Shown: in pieces, positions 6,056-59,862 of the stretch
Layout of the letters: every line of letters begins with the position of its first letter
How positions within the stretch are numbered: position 1 is the stretch's first letter
From: an uncultured Bifidobacteriaceae bacterium
GTDB taxonomy: Bacteria > Actinomycetota > Thermoleophilia > Miltoncostaeales > Miltoncostaeaceae
Direction of reading: 5' to 3'
NCBI GenBank assembly: GCA_964406645.1
Contig: CAYOSM010000001.1
Coordinates: forward strand, 5,564 to 69,563
Length of the DNA stretch: 64,000 nt
Position numbers and translations under genes: made by a program
Notes under the pieces: generated by a model
Databases searched by the model: none
What the model was told of the DNA's origin: nothing
Seen by the model: the letters and a program-made list of their open reading frames with translations, nothing else

Positions 6056-6057
6056 GG

Positions 6058-9657: not shown

Positions 9658-9694
9658 GCCCGCGTCAAGTTAAGTGCCAGGCACCGGGCTTGAC
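9658..9694. repeat. 37-nt intergenic repeat, copy A (GCCCGCGTCAAGTTAAGTGCCAGGCACCGGGCTTGAC)
   Basis: 35 of 37 nt identical to 11799-11835, same orientation. Terminal inverted hexamers GTCAAG/CTTGAC and an inner GTGCC-A-GGCAC palindrome. Lies 3' of the minus-strand SBP gene. Confidence 0.8.
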
Positions 9695-9719
9695 GCAGCC
9701 CGGTGACGGCCCCTCGGTG

Positions 9720-11638: not shown

Positions 11639-11798
11639 CTCTGAGCGTGGTCGGGAACGTGCGTGGCTCGCGCGCGTTCCGCGACCCTACAGGCCGATCC
11701 GTATCGCGTCGACTCGGGGCCGCGACCGGCCGAGGATGTCGCGCGACATCACGCGTGGCCGGAGAACGAATGACATGACGCGCCGCGGCTCGCTCAGG

Positions 11799-11835
11799 CC
11801 CCGCGTCAAGTTAAGTGCCAGACACCAGGCTTGAC
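11799..11835. repeat. 37-nt intergenic repeat, copy B (GCCCGCGTCAAGTTAAGTGCCAGACACCAGGCTTGAC)
   Basis: See copy A. Lies between the DJ-1/PfpI stop (11870) and the Ldt start (11638). Confidence 0.8.
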
Positions 11836-11869
11836 ACCTGCGGCGCCGAGCCGGACGTGCGGCGCGCCG

Positions 11870-45502: not shown

Positions 45503-48454
45503 CTACGAAGCCGCCTGGAACACCGAGCCCTGATGGCGCCACCAGTCTGCGAGCCATGGAAGCGCACCTGGCCGTTGCATCAGCACGAACCGGCGATCCG
45601 GTTCGAGGCGCCACGCCACGAATGCGATCCCCTGGCTACTCCAGCACGCGACGTCCCCAAGGATCACAGACGGATTGTCATCTCGATACCACGCCCCCAG
45701 GTGCGATCCCTTTTCGCAGGTTGTGCCACCCCAGCTACGGCGATCAGCACCCGTCACCTCACGGAACTCGGCATCCGCGAGCCTCTGCGTCCGAAACTCG
45801 GACATCACAGCGGATGTGGCCCCGTGCACGCACCGGACGCGGAGCTTCATCCAAGCGGTTGACCGCGGCGATGGCTTCGGAGCGGGCTGGCACTTCCACT
45901 CCGACCCGGTGATCCCCTGAGCAACCTCTCGTGACTGCTGGGCAAAGTCACGATGCTCGGCGGCCTTCGCCCGTGAGGCGACGATCCACCCGAAGCCGAC
46001 AGCCACCAACAGCGCCACAGCGACCGTCGCCGACATCGCATCGGAGCGCATTCTCGCCCCCGTTCGCTCCTGAGCCCGAACATCCAGCGGAAGAACCCTT
46101 CGTGCGGTGAGGCAGAGGAGGTGAGCGATGGCCGCGGCACACAGTGCCCATCCGGCGGTGGTCCCCGCCACATTTCGAATACCCCCGGCGACGATGGCGG
46201 GAGCGGCGAACGCGGCGATCGCCGCCAACGCCACGGTTCGGCGGTGCCACGGCGGAACTGGACGGGCAAACCCACGCCAGAGCCCATTCACGGAGGTAGC
46301 AATGCTGAAGATGATCTCCGATACCAGGCCAATAGCGACTGCAGCTACAAGATACGGCCAGAGGCGCAAGGCCGCGAGACCGAAAACCGATGCCGGATCA
46401 GTTGACGTCCAAAGAGGTCCGGCAACCGTCGTGATGTACGCGGCGAGTCCGCCCAGAAACCCCCAGGCGAGTATCCCTCGTAAGCTCGCGCCGAGTGCCC
46501 CTCCAAGAGCCGCCCTCGCGCGTTGACGCTCTTCACGACGCGCCCGTTCCGCCTGCTGACGTCGCTGATCCGCCTCCTGCTGGGCATCTCGGTGAAGAAG
46601 TCGGATGACGATGTCACGCGCCGGGCTTGGTGCGCTGCCCGAGGGCCGGGCAGCCGTCTGGAACCACGCGACGTCGCGCACCGCCCCATCACTTCGGGCG
46701 ATCTCCCCGTCCGCGGCGACGCGCTGACGGGCCTCGTCATCGAGCAGAAGATGAAGAATCTGCGCGCACATGGTGTTGCGTTGGGCAGCATCGAGATCAC
46801 GTGCGCCCTCAAGTCGCGTCGCGTGGCTTTGCAACTGTGCCTGTATCCAGTCCCAGTTACGCGCCCACTGCGCCTCGAGGGCGGCCCAGCCCTCGCGAGC
46901 CGCCGAACCATCGTCGTACAGGGTGAGCGCACCATGTTCGAGAATGCCCGCCGTGATCTCGGCCGCCCGGGCATCGCCGGACGCTCCGTTCGCCGCGAGT
47001 CGTCGAAGCCCACCCTCGGCGAGATCGACCCCGTCGAAGACCGGCTCCGTCTCGGGATCCATCGCGATGCGCAGACGGAGGAGCCGGTCGGTCGGTGTGC
47101 CCTCACCGGCCTGCAGAACCTCCAGCGCCCCGGGAAGACCGGCCGTTCTGAGGAAGTCGGCCAGTTGCCGATGCTGGCGACGATGCGCGGCGTCGTTGGC
47201 GACGACTCCGAGCGCCTCATCCCAGTGGTGTCCCATGACACCGGCGAGTCGCACCGGATCACGGTACTGAAGGATCTCGTCGCCGTCTGGCGCCGCAAAG
47301 CTGACGGGCATGATCGTGGTGGACGCCTCGGTCGGTGCTGTCCGACGAATACGGGGGGCGCCGCCCTCCATCCACTCGGTGACCTCATGGAGGCCCCATC
47401 GGTGCTCCGAACTACGGGTCGTCAGACCTCCACACAGGTCGCGCCAACGCCCCTCCTCGACCTCGTCGACCGGCACGTCGTTGGTCGCGAGGAACGCACC
47501 GATCACCTGCTCCTCGCGTGCCGTGCCATCGCTGGCCGACGGTGCGAGCGGATGCCGACCGGTCAACATCTCGATGATCATGATGCCCAGAGACCACCAG
47601 TCGAGCGCAGGACTGACCGCCCCGAATGCGGCCTCAGGCGCCGCGTAGAGGACCGTGCGCGACGCAGTCGCCGCGAAGACCTTGCTCTCAGCTCCCATTG
47701 ACCGAGAAAGACCGAAATCGGTAAGCACCAGATCGAACGTCGGTCGGAGAGAGCGAACCAAGACGTTCGCCGGTTTGAGGTCACGATGCGTGATGCGAAG
47801 TGAGTCGTCGTGGAGGTGAGCGAGGGCGGGGACGATCTCGTCCAGAATCGCGCGGACCCGCTCCTGGCTCAGCTTGGGCCCCTCGTGATCGATGAGGTCC
47901 CTCAGCGACCCATGCGCACAGAACTCGAGCACCTCGTACCAGCGGCCGTCCGACATGCCGCGGTCGATGACGTCGACGACGTGGGCACGATTCGCGGCGT
48001 CGAGCGTGTCGAGGACACCCTGCGGTGGAGGGGTGCGCTGGAAGCGATACACCTTGACGGCCACCTGGCGACCACTCGTACGGTGCTCTGCGACCAGCAC
48101 ATCGGCCTCCGCCCCCTGCGTGGGGATCTCTCTCAGGATCCGATAGTCGGCCCGCAACGCGGAGGGGAGGTTGACGATCGTGTGGAAGGCATCACCATCC
48201 ACTCCGTCACTCCCGACACCGCCGGTGGACGCATCAAGAGCGGTCGAATCAGGTGAGCGATCATCGGCGTGATCCAACCGCGTGCCGTCCGACGACGCGG
48301 CTGTCGTCCCCGGATCCAGCGTCGTCGAATCGGAGCCATCGGCCGAGCTCGTCGATCCGGCGGAGGGATCGAGAGTGGTCGAATCACCACCCGCGTCTCC
48401 ACCGTCGCCATCCAACCGGGTCAGATCCGGGTCACGCCGATCGTCGTCACTCAC
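45503..48454 (-). CDS. Membrane-anchored Ser/Thr protein kinase (Hanks type) with long helical middle, ~5 TM segments and Cys-containing C-terminal domain
   Basis: VAVKVY, HRDLKPANVLV, TDFGLS, YAAPE and WSLG motifs. N-terminal D/S/T-rich repeats (DSTTLDP x2, DSTALDA). TM-rich region ~670-830. Confidence 0.88.
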   Translation of the reverse strand: MSDDDRRDPDLTRLDGDGGDAGGDSTTLDPSAGSTSSADGSDSTTLDPGTTAASSDGTRLDHADDRSPDSTALDASTGGVGSDGVDGDAFHTIVNLPSALRADYRILREIPTQGAEADVLVAEHRTSGRQVAVKVYRFQRTPPPQGVLDTLDAANRAHVVDVIDRGMSDGRWYEVLEFCAHGSLRDLIDHEGPKLSQERVRAILDEIVPALAHLHDDSLRITHRDLKPANVLVRSLRPTFDLVLTDFGLSRSMGAESKVFAATASRTVLYAAPEAAFGAVSPALDWWSLGIMIIEMLTGRHPLAPSASDGTAREEQVIGAFLATNDVPVDEVEEGRWRDLCGGLTTRSSEHRWGLHEVTEWMEGGAPRIRRTAPTEASTTIMPVSFAAPDGDEILQYRDPVRLAGVMGHHWDEALGVVANDAAHRRQHRQLADFLRTAGLPGALEVLQAGEGTPTDRLLRLRIAMDPETEPVFDGVDLAEGGLRRLAANGASGDARAAEITAGILEHGALTLYDDGSAAREGWAALEAQWARNWDWIQAQLQSHATRLEGARDLDAAQRNTMCAQILHLLLDDEARQRVAADGEIARSDGAVRDVAWFQTAARPSGSAPSPARDIVIRLLHRDAQQEADQRRQQAERARREERQRARAALGGALGASLRGILAWGFLGGLAAYITTVAGPLWTSTDPASVFGLAALRLWPYLVAAVAIGLVSEIIFSIATSVNGLWRGFARPVPPWHRRTVALAAIAAFAAPAIVAGGIRNVAGTTAGWALCAAAIAHLLCLTARRVLPLDVRAQERTGARMRSDAMSATVAVALLVAVGFGWIVASRAKAAEHRDFAQQSREVAQGITGSEWKCQPAPKPSPRSTAWMKLRVRCVHGATSAVMSEFRTQRLADAEFREVTGADRRSWGGTTCEKGSHLGAWYRDDNPSVILGDVACWSSQGIAFVAWRLEPDRRFVLMQRPGALPWLADWWRHQGSVFQAAS

Positions 48455-49220
48455 CAGCCGCTCCTTCGAGATGAACCATCACCACTGTCACGTTGTCCGG
48501 AGCCCCCGCGCGCAGCGCTTCGTCGACGAGGATCCGGACGGCCTGCACATCCGCACCGGCGTCACGGACGATCTGCGCGATCTGAGCGCGGGACAGCGCC
48601 GCCTCGAGCCCGTCGCTGCAGACGAGAAGGCGGAGACCAGGCTCGGTCGGGCACCGGCCGACATGAGGCTGCGGCAGCACCGCGCGATCCGCGCCGCCGA
48701 CGACCTGGGTGACGACCGACGATCGCGCCTCCGGGTCGACTCCGGGTGGGCGCGGCGGATGATCGTCGATGCTGAGCTGAAACAGTTCGTCGGAACCGAG
48801 ATCGAAGACCGCCGAATCACCCACGTTCGCGTAGAGGGTGTCCTGAGGTGTGACGACCAGTGCCGCGATCGTGGTGGCCATCCCCGACGACTCCGGTTCG
48901 ATCGTCATCTGATCATGCAGGGCGTGGTGGGCGGAGACGATCGACTCGGCCAGCGCCGCGGTCGTCGAAGTAACGGCTCCGGATGCCATCGACGCCAGCG
49001 CATCTGCACTGGCGCGTTCGCCGAACGGGTGACCACCGGCGCCGTCGGCCACGGCGATGAATACAGGGTGACCCAACAGCAGTCGCCGTCTCAGGAGCAC
49101 GCCGTCGGGCACGAGCCATCCGGCGACGAGGGCTCGGTCCTGATTGCGAACGCGCCGCGCACCCCGGTGACTGAATGCGGTGATCTCAACGGTGGGCACG
49201 CGCCTACCGAGGTTCCTCAT
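48447..49220 (-). CDS. PP2C-family Ser/Thr phosphatase
   Basis: SHRGARRVRNQDR, AVADGAGGHPFGE, GMATTIAAL, NVGDSAV, CSDGL and DNVTVVMV motifs. Confidence 0.88.
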   Translation of the reverse strand: MRNLGRRVPTVEITAFSHRGARRVRNQDRALVAGWLVPDGVLLRRRLLLGHPVFIAVADGAGGHPFGERASADALASMASGAVTSTTAALAESIVSAHHALHDQMTIEPESSGMATTIAALVVTPQDTLYANVGDSAVFDLGSDELFQLSIDDHPPRPPGVDPEARSSVVTQVVGGADRAVLPQPHVGRCPTEPGLRLLVCSDGLEAALSRAQIAQIVRDAGADVQAVRILVDEALRAGAPDNVTVVMVHLEGAAGE

Positions 49221-49806
49221 CCGCCACTCCCACGGTGATCAGCTGGGCGGTCAGTGTGACCGTGCGTCCGAGACCGATGCGGTCACCGTTTCGGACCGCG
49301 GCGACGTCTGTGACGCGGATGTCGTTGACATAGGTGCCGTTCGTGGATCCCAGATCCCGAACGACCACCCGGCCACCCTCGATCGCAAGGGATGCGTGGC
49401 GTCGCGACACGCGATCGAGTGAGGCGAGTGCGGGTGTGTCGGAGGAATGCCTCCCCAGCACCCATGGACCGATTCCCGCCAGAACGAGGGTGACCAGCGG
49501 GCTGACCAGCCGTATCGTCTCGATGACTCCGACGACGGCGCTGTCCGATCCCTGGCGTCCCCCGCAGTACGGACAGGGCGCGCCTACCGGGATGTCGCTC
49601 ACCCCGCATCCTGGTGCCGTGCACGCCCAGCCGGACACGGCCGGGACGGGTGCCCCACGCGAAGAAGTTTCCGTGGTGTCCGGCGTCGCAACCGGCGCCG
49701 GAGTGGCAATCGGTGGCGCGGCCAGCAGATCCTTCCCGCAGGACGGACACCACACCTCCGATGACAGAGTGACCTCCGTCGCGCAGTAGGGACAGCGCGC
49801 GCTCAT
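49204..49806 (-). CDS. Zinc-ribbon + FHA domain protein
   Basis: N-terminal CPYCATE...CPSCG plus a second Cys cluster CTAPGCG...CPYCGG. FHA core VLGRHS...VSRRHASLAIEGGRVVVRDLGSTNGTYVN. Confidence 0.85.
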   Translation of the reverse strand: MSARCPYCATEVTLSSEVWCPSCGKDLLAAPPIATPAPVATPDTTETSSRGAPVPAVSGWACTAPGCGVSDIPVGAPCPYCGGRQGSDSAVVGVIETIRLVSPLVTLVLAGIGPWVLGRHSSDTPALASLDRVSRRHASLAIEGGRVVVRDLGSTNGTYVNDIRVTDVAAVRNGDRIGLGRTVTLTAQLITVGVADEEPR

Positions 49807-51656
49807 CCGAGGTCCACCTCGAAGGTCCGGCCAGTCGGTCGGATCGCACGCACGGCGATGGTACCGTCCCCATAGGACTCCCGCGCGAAAAGCGCCCGTG
49901 CAAGCGGGTTGACGAGGGCGTTCTCGACCACCGACGCCACGCCGCGGCCACCGTTCTCCAAGTTCGACAGCACGTACTGCTCAAGAGACGCACGCGCTGC
50001 AGGATCGATTGTCAGATTGGCGCCCAGCTCCCGCTCCACGCGCGAAACCACGTTCCGCAGCTGAAGATCAAGGATCTGACGTCCAACCTCGTCGGAGATG
50101 AAATCGAAAACCACGATGTTGTCACCGATCCGGTTGAGGAGCTCGGGACGGCCCAGCACACGTGTGAAGTGATCCTTGATCGCCGAGAGGATACTTTCCT
50201 CCACATGCTCGGAGCTGTCACCCCGCGTCACGTTCGGCGTCCGTGTCCCGTCGCCGGATTCGACCCATATCCCCAGGTTCGACGTGAACACGATCACCGC
50301 TTCGGAGAAGAACACCGTCGCCCCACGCCCGTCGGTGAGCCGACCGTCCTCCAGGATCTGGAGGAACTTGTCCAGGATGCGGCCGTCGGCCTTCTCGATC
50401 TCATCGAACAGCACGAGGCTGAACGGTCTCTGACGAATCGCGTTGGTCAGCTCACCGCCGGCGTCATGCCCCACATAGCCGGGCGGGGCGCCGATGAGTC
50501 GTGCCGCGGTGTGCTCCTGCGAGAACTCGCTCATGTCGAAACGGATGTACGCCCGCTCGTCCCCGAAGATCATCCGTGTGAGCTGCTTCGCGAGCTCCGT
50601 CTTGCCCACACCCGTGGGTCCTGCGAAGAACAGCACACCGCGGGGTCGTGTGCCGTACGGGGACCCTTGGGCACCGGTGAGGCCTGTGGCCGACCGGACC
50701 ATGATGTCGAGTGACTTGCGGACTGCGTCTCGCTGGCCGAGCACCTGTCGGGTGAGAGTTTCCTCACCGTTGCGGAGTCTGGCCCGTAGATGATCAGTTC
50801 GCCAGGGATTGTCGAGAATCCCCACCCGATACGCGCGAGCCGCGTCGTCGATGCGATCCAGGCCGAGGTCGGCGTCGTCGGCGAGTAGAACGATCGAGAA
50901 CAGCGACGAGAGTGTCATGCCTTCCGTCTGTTGGGTGAACCTCGCCACCGCCTGACCGCGGTCACTCTCGTCGGCTTCGTTCCATCCACTGACCCGCCGC
51001 AGAAGCATCGCGACGAGCCGCTCCCGTTCGCCGTAGTCCGGGAGGGGAAGCGCGATCGAACGGACACGATCCGTGTGATCGAGCAGCCATGTGGGAATCT
51101 GACGATCGCGGTCGACCGTCCAGAACACCGGGTTGAAGAGACCCACGGATCGCCCGTCACCCGCCGGCGCCGCCGTCGCCGAGAGAGCCATCCGTTCGGC
51201 CAGGCGGAAGAAGGTGAGCGCCACCTCGTCGTAGTGCCCGTCCAGATCGGCAAGGCGACTGGTCCGTTCGACCACCACTGCGGCCCGACGCGTGGTGTTG
51301 ACGATCCGTACGAGATCCTCTCCGAAGGCCGCCAGCGTCTGCGGCATGGGCTGTGAGAGGTCACGCCCGAGGATCTCGCGCACCACACCGGGCGCCACGT
51401 CGCACTGGTCATGAACACGGAGTCCGGTGGTCGGATCGAAACAGAAGAGAACCTCGAAGCCCTGATCCACCAGGCCCATCCAAAGAGCGCACGGGAGATC
51501 GCGAACCGGCACGAACTGGTCCTCGCCGGACGGCAGCAGGTACCGGTCGAACACGTTGCCCTCGAGGACGAACTGCGACGCGATACCGAGGGATCCCATG
51601 ACCTCCCGATACCACGCTGGTGCATCGTCCGGAACCCGTGCGCGGACCGCGGTCAT
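49803..51656 (-). CDS. AAA+ ATPase, ClpA/ClpB D2-like module with ~300-aa unknown N-terminal domain
   Basis: Start MTAVRARV at 51656 (ATGA overlap). VLFFAGPTGVGKTELAK, GAPPGYVGH, SLVLFDEIEKA, LQILEDGRLTD, FTSNLG, and the D2-small-like PELLNRIGDNIVVF. Confidence 0.85.
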   Translation of the reverse strand: MTAVRARVPDDAPAWYREVMGSLGIASQFVLEGNVFDRYLLPSGEDQFVPVRDLPCALWMGLVDQGFEVLFCFDPTTGLRVHDQCDVAPGVVREILGRDLSQPMPQTLAAFGEDLVRIVNTTRRAAVVVERTSRLADLDGHYDEVALTFFRLAERMALSATAAPAGDGRSVGLFNPVFWTVDRDRQIPTWLLDHTDRVRSIALPLPDYGERERLVAMLLRRVSGWNEADESDRGQAVARFTQQTEGMTLSSLFSIVLLADDADLGLDRIDDAARAYRVGILDNPWRTDHLRARLRNGEETLTRQVLGQRDAVRKSLDIMVRSATGLTGAQGSPYGTRPRGVLFFAGPTGVGKTELAKQLTRMIFGDERAYIRFDMSEFSQEHTAARLIGAPPGYVGHDAGGELTNAIRQRPFSLVLFDEIEKADGRILDKFLQILEDGRLTDGRGATVFFSEAVIVFTSNLGIWVESGDGTRTPNVTRGDSSEHVEESILSAIKDHFTRVLGRPELLNRIGDNIVVFDFISDEVGRQILDLQLRNVVSRVERELGANLTIDPAARASLEQYVLSNLENGGRGVASVVENALVNPLARALFARESYGDGTIAVRAIRPTGRTFEVDLG

Positions 51657-52873
51657 CGCTCCTCCAGCGTTCGTGTCCGCTGTGCACGCTCGCGCCGACG
51701 TCGACCAGCGGTGGGCAGATTGTCGATGACCTGCACAGGGTGAACGCCGGCCTCGACGGAATGCGTGACTGCCGCCGAGATCCCCGCCCGCCCGAGCCCC
51801 GCCAGAATCGCGGGCATCGACTCGCACCACGCACCCTCGACCTCGCGATCCCGGAGTTCCTGCGATTCGTCCGCGACACCGCGAACCACGTTGAATCGGA
51901 CTGAACCATCACGCGCCTGGAAACGAACACGGACGGCATATCCCGACCACGCGGGACGCACGACATCCGCGAAGCCGTCCTCGGCCAGCATGGTGTCGAA
52001 CTCGGGACCGCACTCATAGCCGAGATCGGCCAGCACACCCTCCAGCGCATCGATCGTATGATCGCGCGCCGCCAGACGACAGCCCTCACGCTCGGCGTCT
52101 TCCAGAGCGGCGACCTGGGCCGGCGGCAGCGGCGTTTCCGGCGCCCATGCCGCGAGCACCGCCCGTGCGGCCTGACATGCGCTGCCCGGAAGACCGGCCA
52201 AGCGCTCCTCCCAGGCCGCGTGCTGCACCGCTGCCGCCCGCCTGCCCGCAGCCGCGTCGTTGGCCGACCGGACCCGCGACCGGATGAGGTCGACGAGAAG
52301 CGCCGCCGTGTCTCTTTCAACGGCAAGCACACGCTCCGCATCGGCGTGGATCGCGTCCACCACCTCGCCGTCCACATCCGCGTCCAATCGATCGATGATG
52401 CGTTTGACCGTTTCGGTCAGCTCCGTCCGGTGATCGTCCTCGACCGATTCTCGGACGGCCAGTCGCTCCTCCATGCGCTCAAGCGAGCGGTCCCGGAGAT
52501 CCTCGCGCCCCTCCACCGGTACCAGCGCGAGAACCGACGCGGCGAAAGCGGCGCCACGACAGCGGCGGGTGGCCGCAGCGAGATCCTCCTCGCATGCGCG
52601 GAGGTCGCCCTCGGCGCGCTGCAGCTCATCCTCGAACTCGCCGGAGTCCTTCCTGGTCGAAAGCGCACCCGGTCGACGGATATCGCCGAGTTCGCGGCCG
52701 AAGCGCGCACGGGCATCACTTAGCGCACCAGCGAAGGCCTGCATCCGGGCCTCTACGTTCGCGCGGCGGGCCACAAGCTCTGCGCGCCGCCGCTGAGCCG
52801 CCAGGACAGCGGGATCGACCGTGTAGCTCACCGACTTGGGACCGGACACGGACTCCTCCTTCAGAGTGCCCAC
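51653..52873 (-). CDS. Hypothetical coiled-coil protein
   Basis: 406 aa; Ala/Arg/Glu-rich helical N-terminal two thirds, mixed C-terminal ~130 aa; coupled at both ends. Confidence 0.6.
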   Translation of the reverse strand: MGTLKEESVSGPKSVSYTVDPAVLAAQRRRAELVARRANVEARMQAFAGALSDARARFGRELGDIRRPGALSTRKDSGEFEDELQRAEGDLRACEEDLAAATRRCRGAAFAASVLALVPVEGREDLRDRSLERMEERLAVRESVEDDHRTELTETVKRIIDRLDADVDGEVVDAIHADAERVLAVERDTAALLVDLIRSRVRSANDAAAGRRAAAVQHAAWEERLAGLPGSACQAARAVLAAWAPETPLPPAQVAALEDAEREGCRLAARDHTIDALEGVLADLGYECGPEFDTMLAEDGFADVVRPAWSGYAVRVRFQARDGSVRFNVVRGVADESQELRDREVEGAWCESMPAILAGLGRAGISAAVTHSVEAGVHPVQVIDNLPTAGRRRRERAQRTRTLEER

Positions 52874-53538
52874 GAGGGTTGTTCGAATGTCACGCCTGCC
52901 TGCCTGAGCCCTTGCTCCATCCGCTCCAGGTCACCGGGTCGAGGAATCCCGATCATCCAGAACGATTCGTCCACCGCAACCTGGAGATGAGGACGGTCGA
53001 CTTCGCGATCGATGAACGGCTCATATCGCACACGCCCCAGATCCGTGAGCGGTGTGATGACCTGATTGTCCGATCCGCACCAGATACGCCGAGTCGGGCG
53101 ACCAGCGACATACGGACCACAGACGACGGCGTCGATCATGCCAATGACACGCGCATACCGACGACGCAGACCGCTCAGTGAATGTGAGGTGAACACCAGT
53201 ACATCAAGGTCGGATCGTCCCCGACGTGACCGAAGCTCCTCGATTCCGGACAGCAACTCGTGAAGTGCATCGGGCTGCTCGAACGGTTCTCCTCCGCTGA
53301 TCGTGATCCCGGTCAGCGGGGAGACCCACATCAGTTCGTCGATCCAGCCGATGACCGTCGTAACCTCGACCATGCGGTGTTCCGCGTGACTCCATGTGTC
53401 GCGGCTGGCGCATCCGGCACAGCCGACGGTGCATCCCTGGAACCAGACGCCGGCCCGCGTGCCCGGCCCCAGAGCGGTCACCGGATGGTGCAAACGACTC
53501 AGATTGATCCGGTGCGCGCGCTCGCCTGGCACCATCAC
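52861..53538 (-). CDS. NrdG/QueE-like radical-SAM activase-type protein (4Fe-4S single-cluster domain)
   Basis: GVWFQGCTVGCAGCASRDTW (CxxxCxxC followed by W, as in anaerobic RNR activases) and ITISGGEPFEQP. No glycyl-radical enzyme or queuosine genes nearby. Confidence 0.75.
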   Translation of the reverse strand: MMVPGERAHRINLSRLHHPVTALGPGTRAGVWFQGCTVGCAGCASRDTWSHAEHRMVEVTTVIGWIDELMWVSPLTGITISGGEPFEQPDALHELLSGIEELRSRRGRSDLDVLVFTSHSLSGLRRRYARVIGMIDAVVCGPYVAGRPTRRIWCGSDNQVITPLTDLGRVRYEPFIDREVDRPHLQVAVDESFWMIGIPRPGDLERMEQGLRQAGVTFEQPSWAL

Positions 53539-53972
53539 GCCGCCCGGACAGCCACACCCGCGTCACGCTTGCGGATCGCCTTCTCAATGGCCCCGACGGC
53601 TCCTTTGGCCTTCGTGATCGCACCAACCTGTTTGATTCCCCCGCGGGACGTCCACTCGGCGTCGGTGATCGCGCACCGGAGCATCGTCTTGCCGTCGGCG
53701 ATCGAGTCCACATCCACCTGCAATCTCGCCATGCTGTCGCCTACACTCCGAAACTCTCGCGCCAACGACTGTCCTCGCTTCTGAACCACCCCTAGTCGCA
53801 CGGGGCCCTTGAGTGTCTTCTGTGCAAGGTCAAATGCTTCGCCCGCGCTCAGTGATGTCGTGATGATCGTTCCGCCCTCAGCCTCAGCGATGACCCGACG
53901 GCTCCAGGCCATGGCCCATGCATAAAGACCAATGAAACCGGCAATGACGACAACAACGATAAATCCGGCCAC
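53535..53972 (-). CDS. Small N-terminally anchored membrane protein
   Basis: 145 aa; MAGFIVVVVIAGFIGLYAWAMAW TM helix; otherwise unassigned. Confidence 0.55.
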   Translation of the reverse strand: MAGFIVVVVIAGFIGLYAWAMAWSRRVIAEAEGGTIITTSLSAGEAFDLAQKTLKGPVRLGVVQKRGQSLAREFRSVGDSMARLQVDVDSIADGKTMLRCAITDAEWTSRGGIKQVGAITKAKGAVGAIEKAIRKRDAGVAVRAA

Positions 53973-54021: not shown

Positions 54022-54465
54022 TCAACGGCCAGCCGACGGAATTCCGGCCCATGTATCGTCATTGCCGTCGTTGACTGAAGTGCTTACTGCGTCCTCATGA
54101 TCGAACTCGAGGACGCCCAGGCAGTAAACGATCAGCGCCACGAGGTGTCCCGGACCCTCCCCGGCCAGCGCGGCCAGTTCCTGGCGATCACCGGATCCGA
54201 TCGACGCCATCACGGCATTGACGATGTCGAGATCCGGTACACGGTCCGATGCATGCGCCTGAACCTGGATCCAGCGGCGCTCGATCTCGTCTCGGTTGAT
54301 CTCGCGATGGCGGCGGAGGCGCGTCAACGCCGCCTCGACCACGGAATCGGCGTCGAACACCATCAAGCGGGCAATCGAGCGGAACGCGGTCTCACGGTCA
54401 CGTCGATACACGTCGAAGACGGCCGTGTCCAGCACCGGCGATAGATCCCGCGCGTCCGTGTTCAT
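54022..54465 (-). CDS. Hypothetical protein
   Basis: Start MNTDARDL at 54465 (ATGA overlap with the upstream stop). The track ORF extends further 5' through the neighbouring gene. Confidence 0.5.
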   Translation of the reverse strand: MNTDARDLSPVLDTAVFDVYRRDRETAFRSIARLMVFDADSVVEAALTRLRRHREINRDEIERRWIQVQAHASDRVPDLDIVNAVMASIGSGDRQELAALAGEGPGHLVALIVYCLGVLEFDHEDAVSTSVNDGNDDTWAGIPSAGR

Positions 54466-55139
54466 CGTCCCCTCTTCGCTCGATAGGCGACCTCGTTGAG
54501 CGCTTCGCCCACACTCCAGTGACTGAAGCGTGGCAGTCGGGCGAAGCGTCCGGCAACCGCATCGACCGCCTGGTCCAGCTTCCCCGATTCGAACGCCCAT
54601 CCGGTGACGTCCGCCACGCGCGATCCCGTCTCGAATCCCAGCATCTCGGAAGCCTGTCCCACAAGGTCGAGAGCCGGTCCCGGCCAGTCGCCGTGCTCCC
54701 GACGGATCTGGCTGGCGACCGTGACCGCTCCGACGGCCTCCCCGCACTCAGCGCCGGCCTGGCCCAGTATCTCCATGACCTCGTCCACCCTGCGGCGGAG
54801 GTCTGCGCACATGATCCGCACATCATTCGCCCGGTCGAGCGCCGTTTCCCGCTCCACCTCGGCGACACCGAGCCGCTCACGGACAGCCGCATCGGCGTCG
54901 GTCACCTCGCCCAGCGTCGACTCGACCGCAGCCCGGCGATCGTCGACCTCTTCGCTCATCGCCGTCACGAACAAAAGGCCACGATGCTGAACGGCCGCGC
55001 TCTCAAGCGCTGGTGCGATCCATCGGTTCCGTATCTCCGCCGTGGCGGTATCGCGCCAGGCGGCCGGCAGATCCTTCATCGACCCCCTGAGGGCCATGGA
55101 CCGTTGACGAAGATGGACGAGGGGCGAATCGTCGGACAT
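54462..55139 (-). CDS. Hypothetical helical protein
   Basis: 225 aa; no motif recognised; coupled to neighbours. Confidence 0.55.
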   Translation of the reverse strand: MSDDSPLVHLRQRSMALRGSMKDLPAAWRDTATAEIRNRWIAPALESAAVQHRGLLFVTAMSEEVDDRRAAVESTLGEVTDADAAVRERLGVAEVERETALDRANDVRIMCADLRRRVDEVMEILGQAGAECGEAVGAVTVASQIRREHGDWPGPALDLVGQASEMLGFETGSRVADVTGWAFESGKLDQAVDAVAGRFARLPRFSHWSVGEALNEVAYRAKRGR

Positions 55140-55145
55140 CGCAGT

Positions 55146-56096
55146 TCACACGAACCGATCGAATTCCCGAAGGGTCGCGGCACGATCGGCGCACGCGCGT
55201 GAGCCCTGCCCGGCCGCTCGTGCGACCTCGGATTGATCCTCAGTGGCACGGGACAGATGCCGCGACACCTCCGACATGGCCTCCTCGCAGTGTTCGGACA
55301 CCGCCCGCATCTCGTCCACCCGCACCGCCATCTCCTCGTGGTGCGAGTGCAGGTCGGCGACGATCCTGATTCCTCCCGTGAGCCGATCCTCGGCCTCGGA
55401 CGCGGTCCCCCTGACCGTCGTGCACATGTCGCGGAGACGGTTGGCGACATCGAGTGCCGCTTCGCACCGTGTCACCGCGGTCAGACAGCACTCGACGCGA
55501 CTAATGGCCTCCTCCAGAAGCGACTGGAGACGTTCTTGCTCTTGGCGGGCGTGAAGGAGATCCGCCTCCGCCTGCCGCAGATCGGCTTCGGCTTCGCTCA
55601 CCGCGCGAGCCTCCCGGGCACCCGCCCGTTCCTCGCGCGCCCGAGCGCGAGCGTTGTTGAGCCGCTGGCGGCACTGGTCGACACCGAACGCGCACCGGCG
55701 GATCTCGGCCTCCGCCATCTCGACCGCCCGTTGCACCTCGTCTCGCCGACGTTCGGCATCACGAAGCCGGGTGCTCCAGAGATCGACGTACTGTTTCGCC
55801 GTCGAAACCGTCTCCTGACAGAGCCGGTCCGTGGAGTGATAGTCGGTGAGCGCCTCCTGGACGACGGTCGCCGACTCCTCGAAGATCGACTGGGCGCTCC
55901 TCAGATTCTCGGCACAGTCGTCGAGGACGACGCGCGCGCGATCGGCGATCACCCGAATATGAGCGACGCCGTCCTGCACTCCTCGACCGGTCACCTCACC
56001 ATGCGACTGCGCCGTCGAGGCCGCGGAGACCAAGCGTTCGGCGTCACTCTGAACCTGGTCGAGGCGTGCAGCGAGACGACCCGGGTCGACAGCCAT
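55146..56096 (-). CDS. Hypothetical all-helical coiled-coil protein, Cys-rich
   Basis: 316 aa; long heptad-like Ala/Glu/Arg helices with at least 10 Cys; its start overlaps the upstream stop by 1 nt. Confidence 0.6.
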   Translation of the reverse strand: MAVDPGRLAARLDQVQSDAERLVSAASTAQSHGEVTGRGVQDGVAHIRVIADRARVVLDDCAENLRSAQSIFEESATVVQEALTDYHSTDRLCQETVSTAKQYVDLWSTRLRDAERRRDEVQRAVEMAEAEIRRCAFGVDQCRQRLNNARARAREERAGAREARAVSEAEADLRQAEADLLHARQEQERLQSLLEEAISRVECCLTAVTRCEAALDVANRLRDMCTTVRGTASEAEDRLTGGIRIVADLHSHHEEMAVRVDEMRAVSEHCEEAMSEVSRHLSRATEDQSEVARAAGQGSRACADRAATLREFDRFV

Positions 56097-56371
56097 CAGA
56101 ATCCGTCCCGGTCCATCTGGCGGAGCACGGTCAACCGTTCGTTGATGAAGATGATGAGGGCTCTGCTCCCCTCGGTGTGTTCAGCGAGCGCCTCCTGTGC
56201 CTGCCTCCACGCCCTCTTGAACTCGTCGGCCGCATTGCCCCCGTAGCGCGCACTGAGGTGGTCATAGCGGTCACCGACACGTCTCAATGCGTTCTCGGCC
56301 GCCGCGCGCTGCTCTTCGAGTACCGCGAGATAGCGTTCGAGGGCCCTGATGATGAACGTGACATCAGCCAC
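56096..56371 (-). CDS. Small helical protein, possibly WXG100 (ESAT-6)-like
   Basis: 91 aa; predicted helix-turn-helix with central YGGNAADEFKRAW; size and position next to the FtsK-like ATPase fit WXG100, but there is no canonical WxG. Confidence 0.4.
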   Translation of the reverse strand: MADVTFIIRALERYLAVLEEQRAAAENALRRVGDRYDHLSARYGGNAADEFKRAWRQAQEALAEHTEGSRALIIFINERLTVLRQMDRDGF

Positions 56372-56636
56372 CGTTCAGATACCTCGCCAGATGCCGCAGG
56401 CGGCTGTGGATGAACGAGTGGAACTTCGGGGCGTCGACTGTGAGATAGGTCGTCAGATTCTCTTCAAAGGGAGATCGCAACCGTTGGAACTCCTTGTACG
56501 CCCGGTCGTCCCAGACGCGCTTAACCTCGGCCTCCGCATCCTCCAGCGCCGAGTTCATCACTCGGAGCGACCTGTGGAACTCGTCCAGTGCGCGACAGAA
56601 CTCCTTCATCGAGATATCGGTCTGATCGAGGTTCAT
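56364..56636 (-). CDS. Small helical protein, possibly WXG100 (ESAT-6)-like
   Basis: 90 aa; central VWDDRAYKEF (W-x-D in place of W-x-G); immediately downstream of the FtsK-like ATPase (ATGA overlap). Confidence 0.4.
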   Translation of the reverse strand: MNLDQTDISMKEFCRALDEFHRSLRVMNSALEDAEAEVKRVWDDRAYKEFQRLRSPFEENLTTYLTVDAPKFHSFIHSRLRHLARYLNGG

Positions 56637-59506: not shown

Positions 59507-59829
59507 AGAGCCACCACGAGAATGAGGATCAGGACGATCACAGCGATGGCGATACCGACGCCGATCATCACATTGCGACGCTGAGCCTCGAGGCGGGCGA
59601 TCTCGGCTTCCTGCGCCTCCAGGCGCTGAGCGGCATCAGCGATCTGCGTGTTCGCCTCACGCGCGGACGACAGGGCACGCTCGAGCGTAACGGAGGCGGC
59701 CGCCGGCTCACCATCGAACTGACGGGTGTCCGCATCGCCGAAGCCGGCGAGTTCCGCGCGCAGATCGGCGATCCGCGCCCTGTCCAGGTGAAGGTCGGCT
59801 CTCTCTGAGAGCAGGCTGTCAATCATCAT
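59503..59829 (-). CDS. Small coiled-coil protein with C-terminal TM anchor
   Basis: 108 aa; C-terminal VMIGVGIAIAVIVLILILVVAL. Confidence 0.55.
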   Translation of the reverse strand: MMIDSLLSERADLHLDRARIADLRAELAGFGDADTRQFDGEPAAASVTLERALSSAREANTQIADAAQRLEAQEAEIARLEAQRRNVMIGVGIAIAVIVLILILVVAL

Positions 59830-59862
59830 TCGTCTCCGATCCGTCGGTGGACAGCGCAGGAA

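What the first reader, a model, noticed from the sequence alone, without database searches (positions are those of the whole stretch)
49803..53538. Orphan NrdG-like radical-SAM activase coupled to a coiled-coil protein and a ClpB-D2-like AAA+ ATPase
The 225-aa ORF has the activase-type cluster GCTVGCAGCASRDTW plus SGGEP. The window contains no glycyl-radical enzyme, NrdD, or queuosine/deazaguanine genes. It is overlap-coupled to a 406-aa coiled-coil protein and then to a single-ring Clp/Hsp100 D2-type ATPase that carries a ~300-aa unknown N-domain. Radical-SAM enzymes in conflict systems are known to make modified nucleotides (viperin-type), but this is a different, activase-like clade. Its substrate here is unknown and might be one of the operon proteins.
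Basis: partly seen in the sequence, partly recalled or inferred. Interest (0 to 1): 0.66.

Follow-up and report, generated by a model that had tools for sequence, protein, structure and literature searches.

The report
NrdG-like radical-SAM, Clp-ATPase, kinase cassette
A radical-generating enzyme that normally switches on anaerobic ribonucleotide reductase is here found without that partner. Instead it is locked into a widespread, undescribed six-gene cassette with a Clp-type protein unfoldase, a coiled-coil protein and a kinase/FHA/phosphatase switch, which most likely serves in microbial conflict such as phage defence.

Summary
On the minus strand lie an NrdG-type radical-SAM gene (52861-53535), a 398-aa coiled-coil protein (51653-52849) and a 617-aa Clp/Hsp100 ATPase (49803-51656). 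No glycyl-radical enzyme, NrdD or queuosine gene is in the window or in 84 related loci.

There are two corrections. The operon continues through FHA, PP2C and a membrane Ser/Thr kinase to 45503. The ATPase's "unknown N-domain" is a dead D1 AAA+ module, so the protein is ClpC/ClpB-like and two-tiered, not single-ring.

The cassette is conserved. The ATPase sits next to the rSAM in 80-81 of 84 loci, the kinase in 72 and the coiled-coil protein in 67. At least 517 species-representative genomes of Actinomycetota, Betaproteobacteria and others carry it.

On plasmids the same rSAM/ATPase/CC-type core is joined to Mokosh-like helicases, PIN or REase nucleases. In the window it lies in a TIR-STAND island.

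No match to the cassette was found in PADLOC-DB 2023 or in nine literature searches.

Best reading: a phospho-regulated conflict system in which a Clp-type unfoldase works with an NrdG-derived activase on a protein substrate. The substrate and the chemistry remain unknown.

The parts
52861..53535 (-). NrdG-like radical-SAM activase homologue, 224 aa. It has CX3CX2C, the GPGxR loop, GGEP and the NrdG-type D-x-[LV]-x-x-G-x-[FY]...W-x-G-S-x-N-Q motif, plus a ~60-aa C-terminal extension (residues ~165-225) that NrdG lacks.
   Evidence: Pfam Fer4_12 at 7.5e-21. NCBIfam NrdG scores 74 bits, below the 126.1 cut-off. Invariant motifs are. hhalign to E. coli NrdG gives 99.3% and E 7e-21 over NrdG residues 6-153; hhalign to PflA covers only the N-terminal 77 columns. 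Gene call of 224 aa is.
51653..52849 (-). CC protein, 398 aa. It has a conserved N-terminal M-S-G-P-K tag, a poorly conserved coiled coil, a conserved novel alpha/beta C-terminal domain (residues ~264-380; invariant G277, E338, C342, G356, G368; Y278, R323 and D334 >=90%) and a basic tail.
   Evidence: No Pfam hit and no PDB sequence hit. Alignment of 24 orthologues is. AF2 of residues 249-398 gives pLDDT 80.8. Foldseek against PDB and BFVD gives nothing below E 0.08. The protein is found in 67 of 84 loci. The same C-domain occurs in Rhizobium (E 2.4e-11) and Aristaeella (E 1.2e-5) partners.
49803..51656 (-). Two-tier Clp/Hsp100-type ATPase, 617 aa. D1 (residues 1-~290) is degenerate and has no Walker A. 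D2 is active, with GPTGVGKT, the pore loop GAPPGYVG, LFDEIEKA, TSNLG, the R-finger RPELLNR and a D2-small domain. It has no Clp_N, no M-domain and no IGF/IGL loop. A family-specific hairpin insertion follows sensor-1 (~461-476).
   Evidence: Pfam AAA_2 at 3.9e-46 and ClpB_D2-small. NCBIfam ClpB matches residues 350-661 only. AF2 pLDDT is 92.5. Foldseek finds ClpC1/ClpC/ClpB/ClpA at E 1e-31 to 1e-27 with ~650 aligned columns. Alignment with E. coli ClpA and ClpB is. The ATGA overlap with the CC stop is seen.
49204..49806 (-). FHA-domain protein, 200 aa, with an N-terminal double zinc ribbon. It is a putative phospho-threonine reader or adaptor.
   Evidence: Pfam FHA at 5.7e-16 and Zn_ribbon_3. 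It is present in 46 of 84 loci. In Betaproteobacteria the double Zn ribbon is instead fused to the N-terminus of the kinase. Its start overlaps the ATPase stop by 4 nt.
48447..49220 (-). PP2C-type Ser/Thr phosphatase, 257 aa.
   Evidence: Pfam PP2C_2 at 4.7e-14. tblastn detects it in 19 of 84 loci, and gene calls show it in L001, L003, L004, L097 and L098.
45503..48454 (-). Hanks-type Ser/Thr kinase, 983 aa. The catalytic motifs are intact (VAVK, HRDLKPxN, DFG, APE). Behind them lie a helical middle region, several C-terminal TM helices and a Cys-containing C-terminal domain.
   Evidence: Pfam Pkinase at 1.6e-34. The sequence was read. The kinase lies within 9 kb of the rSAM in 72 of 84 loci. 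The best PADLOC matches (mad6, PD-T4-6, MkoA) cover the kinase domain only.
53535..53972 (-). 145-aa protein with an N-terminal hydrophobic helix. It is translationally coupled to the rSAM (GTGATG overlap), but its membership in the cassette is doubtful.
   Evidence: ORF and overlap are. No Pfam, NCBIfam or PADLOC hit. No homologue in any of the 84 related loci.

Best explanation
This is a conserved, horizontally mobile, undescribed multi-gene conflict (probably anti-phage) cassette.

**Executive core (three proteins)**
- An NrdG-derived radical-SAM enzyme. It keeps everything needed to cleave SAM reductively and to bind an extended peptide loop.
- A ClpC/ClpB-like ATPase with a dead D1 tier and a live, pore-loop-bearing D2 tier. 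It has no protease-docking loop.
- A coiled-coil protein with a novel C-terminal domain, a conserved N-terminal SGPK tag and a basic tail.

**Control layer**
- A membrane-anchored Ser/Thr kinase.
- In Actinomycetota, also an FHA phospho-reader with a double Zn ribbon and a PP2C eraser.

**Inferred mechanism**
1. The kinase senses an envelope or infection cue and phosphorylates a partner.
2. The FHA/Zn-ribbon module recruits or licenses the ATPase. Comparable cases, from general knowledge, are PpkA-Fha1-ClpV in type VI secretion and McsB-ClpC.
3. The ATPase grips and unfolds a protein. This could be the CC protein, through its terminal tags, or a foreign protein held by it.
4. The ATPase presents an otherwise buried segment to the rSAM.
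5. The rSAM abstracts a hydrogen atom (activase-type chemistry) and so modifies, activates or destroys that protein.

**Shown versus inferred**
- Shown: gene content, motif integrity, fold assignments, conservation of the neighbourhood, and association with known defence modules.
- Inferred: the defence role, the flow of the signal, that the substrate is a protein, and what the radical does.
For: **Neighbourhood conservation**
- In 84 loci the ATPase, with the same N-domain, is present in 80-81, the STK in 72, CC in 67 and FHA in 46. The usual order is CC>ATPase>rSAM(>FHA>PP2C)>STK, with overlapping stop and start codons.
- At least 517 of 185,579 species-representative genomes carry the rSAM. 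The rSAM has 869 homologue clusters. The full-length ATPase has >=150 50%-identity clusters.

**The rSAM is NrdG-type**
- hhalign against E. coli NrdG gives 99.3% and E 7e-21 over the whole of NrdG.
- The cluster, GPGxR and GGE motifs are invariant.

**The ATPase is built to translocate**
- D2 keeps Walker A and B, the GYVG pore loop, sensor-1 and the Arg finger, all invariant.
- The fold is that of two-ring Clp ATPases.
- D1 lacks a P-loop.

**Defence context**
- On plasmids the same ATPase+rSAM core, with a CC-type protein, is joined to:
  - a kinase-DUF4011-SF1 helicase-REase protein (PDC-S37 9e-139, Hhe, MkoA);
  - a MkoA-like helicase (5.6e-100) with a PIN protein.
- The CC C-domain recurs in Rhizobium and in a clostridial plasmid.
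- The window region from 24 to 64 kb holds three TIR-STAND-TPR proteins and a HerA-like ATPase. Its GC is 0.61-0.67, against 0.70-0.71 in the neighbouring housekeeping DNA.
- Other loci are flanked by transposases or toxin-antitoxin genes.

**Control layer looks active**
- The kinase, PP2C and FHA catalytic or binding motifs are intact.
Against: - No experiment bears on any of this.
- No conserved glycyl-radical motif (RVxG[FYW]) exists in any partner.
  - The window's RRVSGW in the ATPase D1 lid is not conserved.
  - CC Gly368 is lost in the clostridial variant.
- Most hosts are aerobes, where a stable glycyl radical would not survive (general knowledge).
- Several loci, for example the syntenic Undibacterium genomes, sit in stable chromosomal contexts without obvious defence neighbours.
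- The rSAM could act on a small molecule, as its relative QueE does.
- No physical interaction or complex could be modelled here.
- PADLOC matches of the core ATPase (PDC-M37B, DolB) cover only the generic AAA core.
Confidence: 0.45

Rival explanations
1. The rSAM makes a small molecule. By analogy with viperin (ddh-nucleotides), QueE (a deazapurine precursor) or Ophion's OpnA, it would convert a nucleotide or metabolite into an antiviral compound or a second messenger. The ATPase, CC and kinase would act only as regulators or sensors.
For: - rSAM enzymes in known defence systems act on nucleotides. pVip is in PADLOC, and the distant Moellerella homologue hits pVip weakly at 5.6e-6. The Ophion system is described in bioRxiv 10.1101/2025.09.30.679545.
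- QueE belongs to the same Fer4_12 superfamily and gives a weak hit (E 3e-4; tblastn 3e-5).
- No conserved radical-acceptor glycine was found in the partners.
Against: - The enzyme aligns end to end with NrdG, a protein-directed activase. It keeps the GPGxR loop and the NrdG-specific C-terminal WRGSxNQ motif.
- NCBIfam hits are ranked NrdG > PflA > other GRE activases >> QueE.
- No nucleotide-handling partner (kinase of the CMK type, PRTase, PHP, queCDF) is found in the loci.
- Its tightest partner is a polypeptide translocase.
Confidence: 0.2
2. The cassette is not an immune system. It would be a housekeeping or stress-response module: a phospho-regulated protein-remodelling or quality-control machine, or a maturation machine for the CC protein, used in envelope stress or development of Actinomycetota and some Proteobacteria.
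For: - STK/FHA/PP2C triads commonly regulate cell-envelope and division functions in Actinomycetota (general knowledge; the NCBIfam FhaB/OdhI-type FHA hits are).
- Several loci lie in ordinary chromosomal neighbourhoods. The locus is syntenic across eight Undibacterium species.
Against: - Distribution is patchy, at about 0.3% of species representatives, and spans distant phyla.
- Copies are plasmid-borne.
- The core is fused or joined to MkoA-, Hhe- and PDC-S37-like helicase-nucleases and to PIN proteins.
- The window copy sits in a TIR-STAND island.
- Transposases or toxin-antitoxin genes are adjacent in other loci.
Confidence: 0.2
3. The cassette is an accessory of a secretion apparatus. The ATPase would act like ClpV (type VI) or an ESX-associated chaperone under kinase/FHA/PP2C control, serving the adjacent FtsK/SpoIIIE-WXG100 cluster.
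For: - In the window an FtsK/SpoIIIE ATPase, two WXG100-like small proteins and further genes lie directly upstream on the same strand.
- The NCBIfam ClpV1 model matches D2 at 1.7e-59.
- Type VI secretion uses a PpkA/PppA/Fha1 switch (general knowledge).
Against: - None of the upstream genes, including the coupled 145-aa ORF, recurs in the 84 related loci.
- The ClpB model scores higher than ClpV.
- No type VI or ESX core genes are present.
- This reading leaves the rSAM unexplained.
Confidence: 0.05
4. It is an ordinary NrdG whose NrdD is encoded elsewhere in the genome, and the neighbourhood is coincidental.
For: Public annotation pipelines name many homologues 'anaerobic ribonucleoside-triphosphate reductase activating protein'. 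The sequence similarity to NrdG is real.
Against: - It scores below the equivalog cut-offs of all four NrdG models.
- It has a ~60-aa extension that NrdG lacks.
- It forms a separate clade.
- Its neighbours are the same non-RNR genes in 80 of 84 loci across phyla.
- No NrdD is found within 10 kb in any locus.
- The hosts are largely aerobic genera: Streptomyces, Micromonospora, Actinomadura, Mycolicibacterium and Undibacterium (physiology from general knowledge).
Confidence: 0.03

Closest known systems
NrdG (class III ribonucleotide reductase activase) and the wider glycyl-radical-enzyme activases (PflA and relatives)
   Same: - CX3CX2C cluster motif near the N-terminus.
- G-P-G-x-R loop and GGE(P) SAM motif.
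- The NrdG-specific C-terminal D-x-L-V-D-G-x-F...W-R-G-S-x-N-Q motif.
- It aligns to NrdG residues 6-153 of 154.
   Different: - Below all curated NrdG and PflA cut-offs.
- An extra ~60-aa C-terminal extension.
- Leu replaces the Asp/Asn that precedes GPG.
- No NrdD or other GRE nearby in 84 loci.
- The conserved partner is a Clp-type ATPase.
Class I (two-ring) Clp/Hsp100 ATPases: ClpC/ClpC1, ClpB, ClpA, ClpV
   Same: - The D2 module has all catalytic and pore-loop motifs and the D2-small domain.
- The overall two-tier fold matches ClpC1/ClpC/ClpB/ClpA chains.
   Different: - D1 has lost Walker A (G-N-x-R-D) and is unrecognisable to Pfam.
- No Clp_N domain, no M-domain and no ClpP-docking IGF/IGL loop.
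- A family-specific hairpin sits at the position of that loop.
Threonine-phosphorylation switches that control AAA+ machines: PpkA-PppA-Fha1-ClpV of type VI secretion, and McsB-ClpC phospho-degron targeting (comparison from general knowledge, not tested)
   Same: A Hanks kinase, a PP2C phosphatase and an FHA reader are encoded together with a Clp-family ATPase.
   Different: - No secretion or protease genes.
- An rSAM and a CC protein are obligatory partners.
- In Betaproteobacteria FHA and PP2C are absent, and the Zn-ribbon pair is fused to the kinase.
Mokosh (MkoA helicase, with or without an STK domain), Hhe and PDC-S37 helicase-nuclease defence proteins, and PD-T4-6 defence kinases
   Same: Plasmid variants of the cassette carry MkoA-, Hhe- and PDC-S37-like proteins. 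The cassette kinases resemble defence kinases in their catalytic domain.
   Different: The window copy has no helicase or nuclease. The rSAM/ATPase/CC core is not part of any of these systems as defined in PADLOC-DB 2.0.
Radical-SAM defence enzymes: prokaryotic viperins (pVip) and Ophion OpnA
   Same: A radical-SAM enzyme sits inside a conflict-type gene cluster.
   Different: The rSAM clade is different: the activase type rather than the viperin type, with no PADLOC pVip hit for the window protein. The partners are also different. Ophion is rSAM + PHP + PRTase, and viperins pair with nucleotide kinases.
Dodola DolB and PADLOC candidate PDC-M37B (ClpB-like ATPases in defence systems)
   Same: An AAA_2-type ATPase core (98 and 60 bits).
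   Different: The matches cover only ~120-170 residues of the generic AAA core. No DolA or PDC-M37A partner is present. The dead D1 tier is not shared, as far as the match ranges show.

Membership tests
NrdG (anaerobic RNR activase) | N-terminal CX3CX2C [4Fe-4S] motif, GPGxR loop and GGE SAM-binding motif | tested here: met
   These motifs are invariant in 27 homologues and align to E. coli NrdG.
NrdG (anaerobic RNR activase) | Scores above the curated equivalog threshold of an NrdG model | tested here: not met
   - TIGR02491: 74.0 against 126.1.
- NF008335: 56.8 against 199.
- TIGR02826: 35.4 against 151.7.
- TIGR02495: 27.6 against 131.
NrdG (anaerobic RNR activase) | A cognate NrdD (glycyl-radical RNR) as the conserved genomic partner | tested here: not met
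   tblastn with the E. coli NrdD C-terminal 492 aa gives no hit in the 64-kb window (best E 8.2) and none at E<=0.01 in 84 loci of about 20 kb each. Whole genomes could not be scanned.
Glycyl-radical-enzyme activases in general (PflA type) | A substrate protein carrying a conserved RVxG[FYW] glycyl-radical loop | tested here: not met
   - No PROSITE-like motif in any six-frame translation of the window.
- The only RxxG[FYW] match, ATPase residues 221-226 (RRVSGW), has a non-conserved Gly.
- The invariant CC glycines lack the motif context.
- PflB finds nothing.
Glycyl-radical-enzyme activases in general (PflA type) | Generates a protein glycyl radical by H-abstraction using SAM | not testable with these tools
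   This needs anaerobic reconstitution, EPR and 5'-deoxyadenosine assays.
QueE (7-carboxy-7-deazaguanine synthase) | Scores above the QueE model threshold and co-occurs with queC, queD or tgt | tested here: not met
   TIGR04322 scores 20.3 against 200. QueC, QueD, QueA and Tgt are absent from the window and from 84 loci.
Viperin-type defence rSAM (pVip) | Matches viperin/pVip profiles | tested here: not met
   The window rSAM has no PADLOC hit at E<=0.01, and no viperin family appears among its NCBIfam hits.
Class I Clp/Hsp100 (ClpB/ClpC/ClpA/ClpV) | D2 AAA_2 module with Walker A/B, GYVG pore loop, sensor-1, Arg finger and D2-small domain | tested here: met
   Pfam AAA_2 at 3.9e-46 and ClpB_D2-small at 3.8e-6. 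The motifs are invariant in 49 orthologues and align with ClpA and ClpB.
Class I Clp/Hsp100 (ClpB/ClpC/ClpA/ClpV) | An ATP-binding D1 module (Walker A GxxGxGKT) | tested here: not met
   D1 has an AAA-like fold and the sensor-1/lid signature. At the P-loop position it has G-N-x-R-D. No Pfam AAA hit is found in residues 1-290.
Class I Clp/Hsp100 (ClpB/ClpC/ClpA/ClpV) | Clp_N domain, plus either an M-domain (ClpB/ClpC) or a ClpP-docking IGF/IGL loop (ClpA/ClpC) | tested here: not met
   No Clp_N hit. All ClpB, ClpA, ClpV and ClpK models match residues ~350-660 only and score far below their cut-offs. The alignment shows no M-domain or IGL; a different hairpin occupies that site.
Known anti-phage systems in PADLOC-DB 2.0 (Dodola, PDC-M37, MADS, TerY-P, Mokosh and others) | Core proteins match the system's profiles over most of their length, with the system's other genes present | tested here: not met
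   - rSAM, CC, FHA and PP2C have no hits.
- The ATPase matches only the AAA core of PDC-M37B and DolB.
- The STK matches only the kinase domain of mad6, PD-T4-6 and MkoA.
Anti-phage defence system (functional class) | Confers protection against phage or plasmid when expressed | not testable with these tools
   Only contextual evidence is available: defence-island location and Mokosh/Hhe/PIN partners.

The most novel reading that the evidence does not exclude
The cassette is a 'radical unfoldase-activase' machine.

A Clp-type translocase with a dead D1 tier threads a phospho-licensed protein: either its own CC partner or a captured phage protein. It hands the unfolded chain to an NrdG-derived radical-SAM enzyme docked at the exit of the D2 ring, in the place where ClpP docks on ClpA and ClpC.

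The enzyme abstracts a backbone or side-chain hydrogen. In aerobic hosts this would lead to irreversible modification, cross-linking or O2-dependent chain cleavage. In other words, radical chemistry would replace proteolysis as the executive step of an immune or suicide response.
Probability: 0.15. Interest if true: 0.92.

Novelty: categorically new. Interest (0 to 1): 0.72.

Why it matters
Glycyl-radical activases are textbook partners of a handful of anaerobic enzymes. Here an NrdG-derived branch is present in at least several hundred, mostly aerobic, species. It has no glycyl-radical enzyme partner and is always tied to a polypeptide translocase.

If the inferred logic holds, three things would follow:
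- The known reach of radical-SAM chemistry in immunity would extend beyond nucleotide analogues such as viperin, to protein substrates.
- A new use of Clp/Hsp100 machines would be defined: an unfoldase feeding a radical enzyme instead of a protease or the refolding pathway.
- The cassette would be a further example of kinase/FHA/PP2C control of a bacterial conflict system.

Even if the mechanism is wrong, the cassette is a well-delimited and widespread candidate defence system of four to six genes. It has clear mutational targets and is absent from PADLOC-DB 2.0, so it can be tested directly.

There is also a practical point. Hundreds of database entries named 'anaerobic ribonucleoside-triphosphate reductase activating protein' are probably mis-annotated.

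Tried and rejected
1. **Homologue searches for the CC protein.** Word-index searches failed: the full-length query found only itself, and the C-domain profile found 7 fragments. Orthologues were instead taken from the fetched loci by tblastn.
2. **Structure prediction with locus-derived sequences.** The CC C-domain model therefore rests on 8 sequences.
3. **Identity of the CC C-domain.** Pfam, PDB sequences, Foldseek against PDB and Foldseek against BFVD all gave nothing significant.
4. **Glycyl-radical motif search.**
   - The only hit, RRVSGW in ATPase D1, was rejected because the Gly varies among orthologues.
   - The invariant Y-[RK]-[VIL]-G-x-x-[DE]-N-P-W linker between D1 and D2 was considered as a radical site. 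It is a well-ordered helix end or linker in the model and lacks the motif spacing, so it is not proposed.
5. **N-domain against the protein's own D2.** hhalign found no signal. Fold-level comparison was needed.
6. **Upstream genes.** The FtsK/WXG100 cluster and the coupled 145-aa ORF were considered as parts of the system. They were rejected because they are absent from all 84 related loci.
7. **The Paenibacillus/Paenarthrobacter ATPase** next to a related rSAM is a classical AAA protein, not the Clp-like family. It is treated as a different system.
8. **IMG/VR scan.** Only NrdG-like phage genes at <=32% identity were found. The cassette was not seen on viral contigs.
9. **Literature.** Nine full-text searches found no description of the cassette. 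The nearest items are Kaur et al. 2020 (PMC7159879, other rSAM/AAA+ contexts) and Ophion.
10. **The weak SAM-domain (Shank) similarity** of the rSAM C-terminal extension (E 0.014-0.8) is regarded as chance.

Full report
**1. What is in the sequence**

The window is high-GC DNA. GC is 0.70-0.71 in the first 12 kb and 0.61-0.67 from there to the end.

Between 45503 and 53972 the minus strand carries a run of tightly packed ORFs:

| Gene | Coordinates | Length |
|---|---|---|
| 145-aa ORF | 53535-53972 | 145 aa |
| radical-SAM protein | 52861-53535 | 224 aa |
| CC protein | 51653-52849 | 398 aa |
| ATPase | 49803-51656 | 617 aa |
| FHA protein | 49204-49806 | 200 aa |
| PP2C phosphatase | 48447-49220 | 257 aa |
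| Ser/Thr kinase | 45503-48454 | 983 aa |

- Reading the DNA shows a GGAGGAG Shine-Dalgarno 8 nt before the GTG start of the CC gene.
- It also shows an ATGA stop/start overlap between the CC gene and the ATPase gene. The 675-aa and 406-aa ORFs listed mechanically therefore over-extend at their 5' ends.
- Gene calls on identical metagenome contigs give the same lengths: 224, 398, 617, 200, 257 and 983 aa.

**2. The radical-SAM protein**

- Pfam assigns Fer4_12 at 7.5e-21.
- NCBIfam ranks NrdG first at 74 bits, then PflA and other glycyl-radical activases, and QueE far behind. Every score is well below the curated cut-off.
- A profile of 27 homologues aligns to E. coli NrdG over NrdG residues 6-153 of 154 (99.3%, E 7e-21). 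This includes the NrdG-specific C-terminal motif D-x-L-V-D-G-x-F...W-R-G-S-x-N-Q.
- PflA aligns only over the N-terminal 77 columns.
- About 60 residues (165-225) follow that NrdG lacks. They are conserved within the family.
- Invariant positions include the three cluster cysteines, the P-V-T-x-L-G-P-G-x-R loop and G-G-E-P.
- In a crude NJ tree the family forms its own clade, apart from E. coli NrdG, PflA and QueE.
- The enzyme therefore looks competent for reductive SAM cleavage and is derived from protein-directed activases. It is not an equivalog of NrdG.

**3. Orphan status**

- E. coli NrdD (the C-terminal 492 aa, including the glycyl-radical domain) and PflB find nothing in the window, and nothing in 84 related loci of about 20 kb each.
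- QueC, QueD, QueA and Tgt find nothing either.
- No PROSITE-type glycyl-radical motif occurs in any frame of the window.

**4. The ATPase**

- Residues ~350-660 are a ClpB-D2-type module: AAA_2 at 3.9e-46 plus ClpB_D2-small.
- In 49 orthologues the following are invariant or nearly so:
  - Walker A (GPTGVGKT);
  - the pore loop (GAPPGYVG);
  - Walker B (LFDEIEKA);
  - sensor-1 (TSNLG);
  - the Arg-finger region (RPELLNR);
  - sensor-2 (GGRG).
- The N-terminal 290 residues have no Pfam hit, even across 32 orthologues. Their alignment nevertheless shows an AAA signature:
  - a strand ending in G-N-x-R-D where the P-loop should be;
  - hhhhDxASRL where Walker B should be;
  - the classical 'V-x-W-x-x-x-R-x-x-D-L-P...I-P-x-P-D-x3-R...T-x-G-M-T-L' sensor-1/box VII/lid pattern.
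- A profile search of PDB sequences puts Vps4 first at exactly this stretch (E 0.044).
- The AF2 model built on 49 sequences is confident (pLDDT 92.5, pTM 0.87).
- Foldseek aligns the model globally to two-ring Clp chains: M. tuberculosis ClpC1, S. aureus and B. subtilis ClpC, ClpB and ClpA. Values are E 9e-32 to 1e-27, about 650 alignment columns and TM 0.55-0.59.
- The protein is therefore a ClpC/ClpB-like two-tier ATPase with a dead D1.
- It has no Clp_N, no M-domain and no IGF/IGL ClpP loop.
- At the position of ClpA's IGL loop, right after sensor-1, the family has its own beta-hairpin insertion.

**5. The CC protein**

- It has no Pfam or PDB sequence relative.
- Twenty-four orthologues show four parts:
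  - a conserved N-terminus;
  - a barely conserved coiled coil;
  - a conserved C-terminal domain of about 120 aa;
  - a basic tail.
- In the C-terminal domain G277, E338, C342, G356 and G368 are invariant, and Y278, R323 and D334 are >=90% conserved. Numbering is for the 398-aa protein.
- AF2 of residues 249-398 gives pLDDT 80.8. The model shows a helix, a four-stranded sheet, a long helix and an extended C-terminal segment.
- Foldseek finds nothing significant in PDB or BFVD.
- The N-terminal M-S-G-P(-K) motif has Ser2 in 46 of 46, Gly3 in 37 of 46 and Pro4 in 31 of 46 sequences.
- The same motif is also present in Rhizobium and in a clostridial plasmid copy. This is striking given the variable coiled coil behind it.

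**6. Conservation of the neighbourhood**

- The rSAM has 869 homologue clusters.
- The hosts are Actinomycetota, Betaproteobacteria and Latescibacterota:
  - Actinomycetota: Streptomyces, Kitasatospora, Micromonospora, Actinomadura, Actinoplanes, Mycolicibacterium and Solirubrobacterales;
  - Betaproteobacteria: Undibacterium, Rhodocyclaceae and Gallionellaceae.
- In 84 loci, tblastn with the window's proteins gives these counts within 9 kb:

| Partner | Loci (of 84) |
|---|---|
| ATPase D2 | 81 |
| ATPase dead D1 | 80 |
| kinase | 72 |
| CC | 67 |
| FHA | 46 |
| PP2C | 19 |

- The usual order is CC>ATPase>rSAM(>FHA>PP2C)>STK or STK>CC>ATPase>rSAM>FHA. Stop and start codons overlap.
- The window's order, with the rSAM first, recurs in L008 and L098.
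- Betaproteobacteria have a four-gene form, CC-ATPase-rSAM-STK. There the kinase carries at its N-terminus the same double zinc ribbon that heads the actinobacterial FHA protein.
- The kinases share intact catalytic motifs, a helical middle region and C-terminal TM helices.

**7. Wider variants and the conflict context**

On plasmids, rSAM relatives at 30-41% identity sit beside the same ATPase family but with other partners:

- *Rhizobium leguminosarum*:
  - The order is ATPase-rSAM, a 2086-aa protein, then a 452-aa protein.
  - The 2086-aa protein is kinase-DUF4011-SF1 helicase-REase.
  - The 452-aa protein's C-terminus is the CC domain (hhalign 97%, E 2.4e-11).
- *Leisingera* and *Moellerella*: an SF1 helicase, a PIN protein, a ~380-aa protein, the ATPase and the rSAM.
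- *Aristaeella* (Clostridia):
  - The gene order is DUF4011 protein, STK, a 430-aa protein, FHA, rSAM, ATPase, PP2C and a second kinase.
  - The 430-aa protein carries the CC domain (E 1.2e-5).

PADLOC identifies the partners as defence proteins:

- The Rhizobium giant matches PDC-S37 at 9.4e-139, Hhe at 7.6e-65 and MkoA at 2.2e-46.
- The Leisingera helicase matches MkoA at 5.6e-100.

The core proteins themselves have no PADLOC family. The rSAM, CC, FHA and PP2C give nothing. The ATPase and the kinase match only through their generic catalytic cores.

In the window the cassette lies in an island with three TIR-STAND-TPR proteins and a HerA/TrwB-like ATPase. Other loci have adjacent transposases or a PhdYeFM/PIN toxin-antitoxin pair.

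IMG/VR contains only ordinary phage NrdG-like genes.

**8. Mechanism**

Shown:
- a SAM-cleaving, peptide-loop-binding activase fold;
- a translocation-competent D2 ring partner with a pseudo-D1;
- a conserved adaptor-like CC protein with terminal tags;
- an intact kinase, FHA and PP2C switch;
- modular association with defence helicase-nucleases.

Inferred:
1. The kinase senses a cue at the membrane.
2. Phospho-dependent recruitment through FHA and the Zn ribbon licenses the ATPase.
3. The ATPase unfolds and presents a protein segment to the rSAM.
4. The rSAM performs H-atom abstraction.

Candidate substrates:
- the CC protein, through its SGPK N-terminus or the extended C-terminal segment with G356;
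- a foreign protein.

No conserved RVxG-type glycine exists, and most hosts are aerobes. A classical stable glycyl radical is therefore unlikely. A catalytic or suicide modification is more plausible.

The main rivals:
- a small-molecule product (viperin- or QueE-like logic);
- a non-immune stress or maturation role.

I give about 0.45 to the overall model: a conflict cassette in which the unfoldase works with a protein-directed radical enzyme. I give much less to any specific chemistry.

**9. Comparison with the known, and novelty**

The parts belong to known superfamilies: NrdG-type activases, class I Clp/Hsp100 ATPases, Hanks kinases, FHA and PP2C. Membership in NrdG, QueE, viperin, ClpB/C/A/V, Dodola, PDC-M37, MADS or Mokosh each fails at least one defining feature that was tested (see the membership table).

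Nine literature searches found no description. The closest texts are these:
- Kaur et al. 2020 (PMC7159879) mentions a different rSAM in FtsH ternary systems.
- The Ophion system is rSAM+PHP+PRTase.

I therefore rate the cassette, as a system, as not assignable to any described kind. Two caveats apply: its function is untested, and the literature outside the searchable library was not covered.

**10. Verdict**

  - Right: an orphan activase clade in a conflict context.
  - Wrong: the ATPase architecture.
  - Incomplete: the kinase, FHA and PP2C belong to the unit.
- Interest is 0.72.

Noticed in passing
window 54022-63710 (minus strand): Directly upstream of the cassette, and co-oriented with mostly overlapping genes, lies a cluster made of:
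- an FtsK/SpoIIIE ATPase (56633-59506; its PADLOC matches are SspH and mad8 ATPase regions);
- two ~90-aa WXG100-like proteins (56096-56371 and 56364-56636);
- a coiled-coil 316-aa protein (55146-56096);
- an M48 peptidase (60669-61580);
- several proteins with no family hit.

It looks like an ESX/type VII-like or FtsK-centred conflict module. It does not co-occur with the cassette in the 84 related loci.
   Followed up: partly
window 27901-30813 (+), 31994-35185 (+), 41040-44114 (+): Three large TIR-domain proteins of the STAND NTPase type (TIR_2 plus NPHP3_N, NB-ARC or AAA_16), two of them with TPR repeats. They are NLR-like immune proteins. Their PADLOC hits are weak and cover only the TIR region.
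   Followed up: partly
window 24758-27271 (+) and 36991-39822 (-): Two further island genes: a HerA/TrwB-like ATPase (DUF87, TrwB_AAD_bind; PADLOC mad8-like) and a 943-aa protein with TrkA_N and RyR domains. Both are of unknown role.
   Followed up: no
window 1-12000 versus 12000-64000: GC falls from 0.70-0.71 in the housekeeping part (for example a PurL-like FGAM synthase at 3210-5579) to 0.61-0.67 in the rest. This fits a horizontally acquired island of about 50 kb.
   Followed up: no
window 51653-52849 (the N-terminus of the CC protein); also L085 14910-16268 and L087 6095-7387: The N-terminal M-S-G-P(-K) peptide of the CC protein is conserved across Actinomycetota, Alpha- and Betaproteobacteria, Latescibacterota and Clostridia, while the coiled coil behind it is not. 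It may be a recognition, threading or modification tag.
   Followed up: partly
L088 5763-8630 (Paenibacillus polymyxa pPPM1a) and L100 4564-8257 (Paenarthrobacter ureafaciens plasmid pC): A different cassette built around a related NrdG-like rSAM: a classical AAA ATPase, a DUF1257-like protein, DUF2997, an optional HhH protein, and the rSAM. In Paenarthrobacter it lies near HNH, SIR2 and toxin-antitoxin genes. It suggests a wider, unexplored theme of 'activase-like rSAM + AAA+'.
   Followed up: partly
L099 3424-14945 (Calothrix sp. PCC 6303 plasmid pCAL6303.02): Another context for a related rSAM: an Hsp70-family protein, a 1316-aa TPR protein, the rSAM, a 494-aa unknown protein, an 848-aa double classical-AAA ATPase and a coiled-coil protein.
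   Followed up: no
L101 1-9576 (Leisingera plasmid) and L086 1-8591 (Moellerella plasmid): A Mokosh-like MkoA helicase (PADLOC 5.6e-100) is paired with a large PIN-domain protein, rather than the PLD nuclease that I recall from the Mokosh literature as MkoA's usual partner (not checked here). A ~380-aa protein, the Clp-like ATPase and the rSAM follow. In Moellerella the cluster lies next to ArdA and an integrase.
   Followed up: partly
one search hit list (for example P0003, P0009 and many JGI entries): Many members of this rSAM family are named 'anaerobic ribonucleoside-triphosphate reductase activating protein' in public annotation, which the evidence here does not support.
   Followed up: yes
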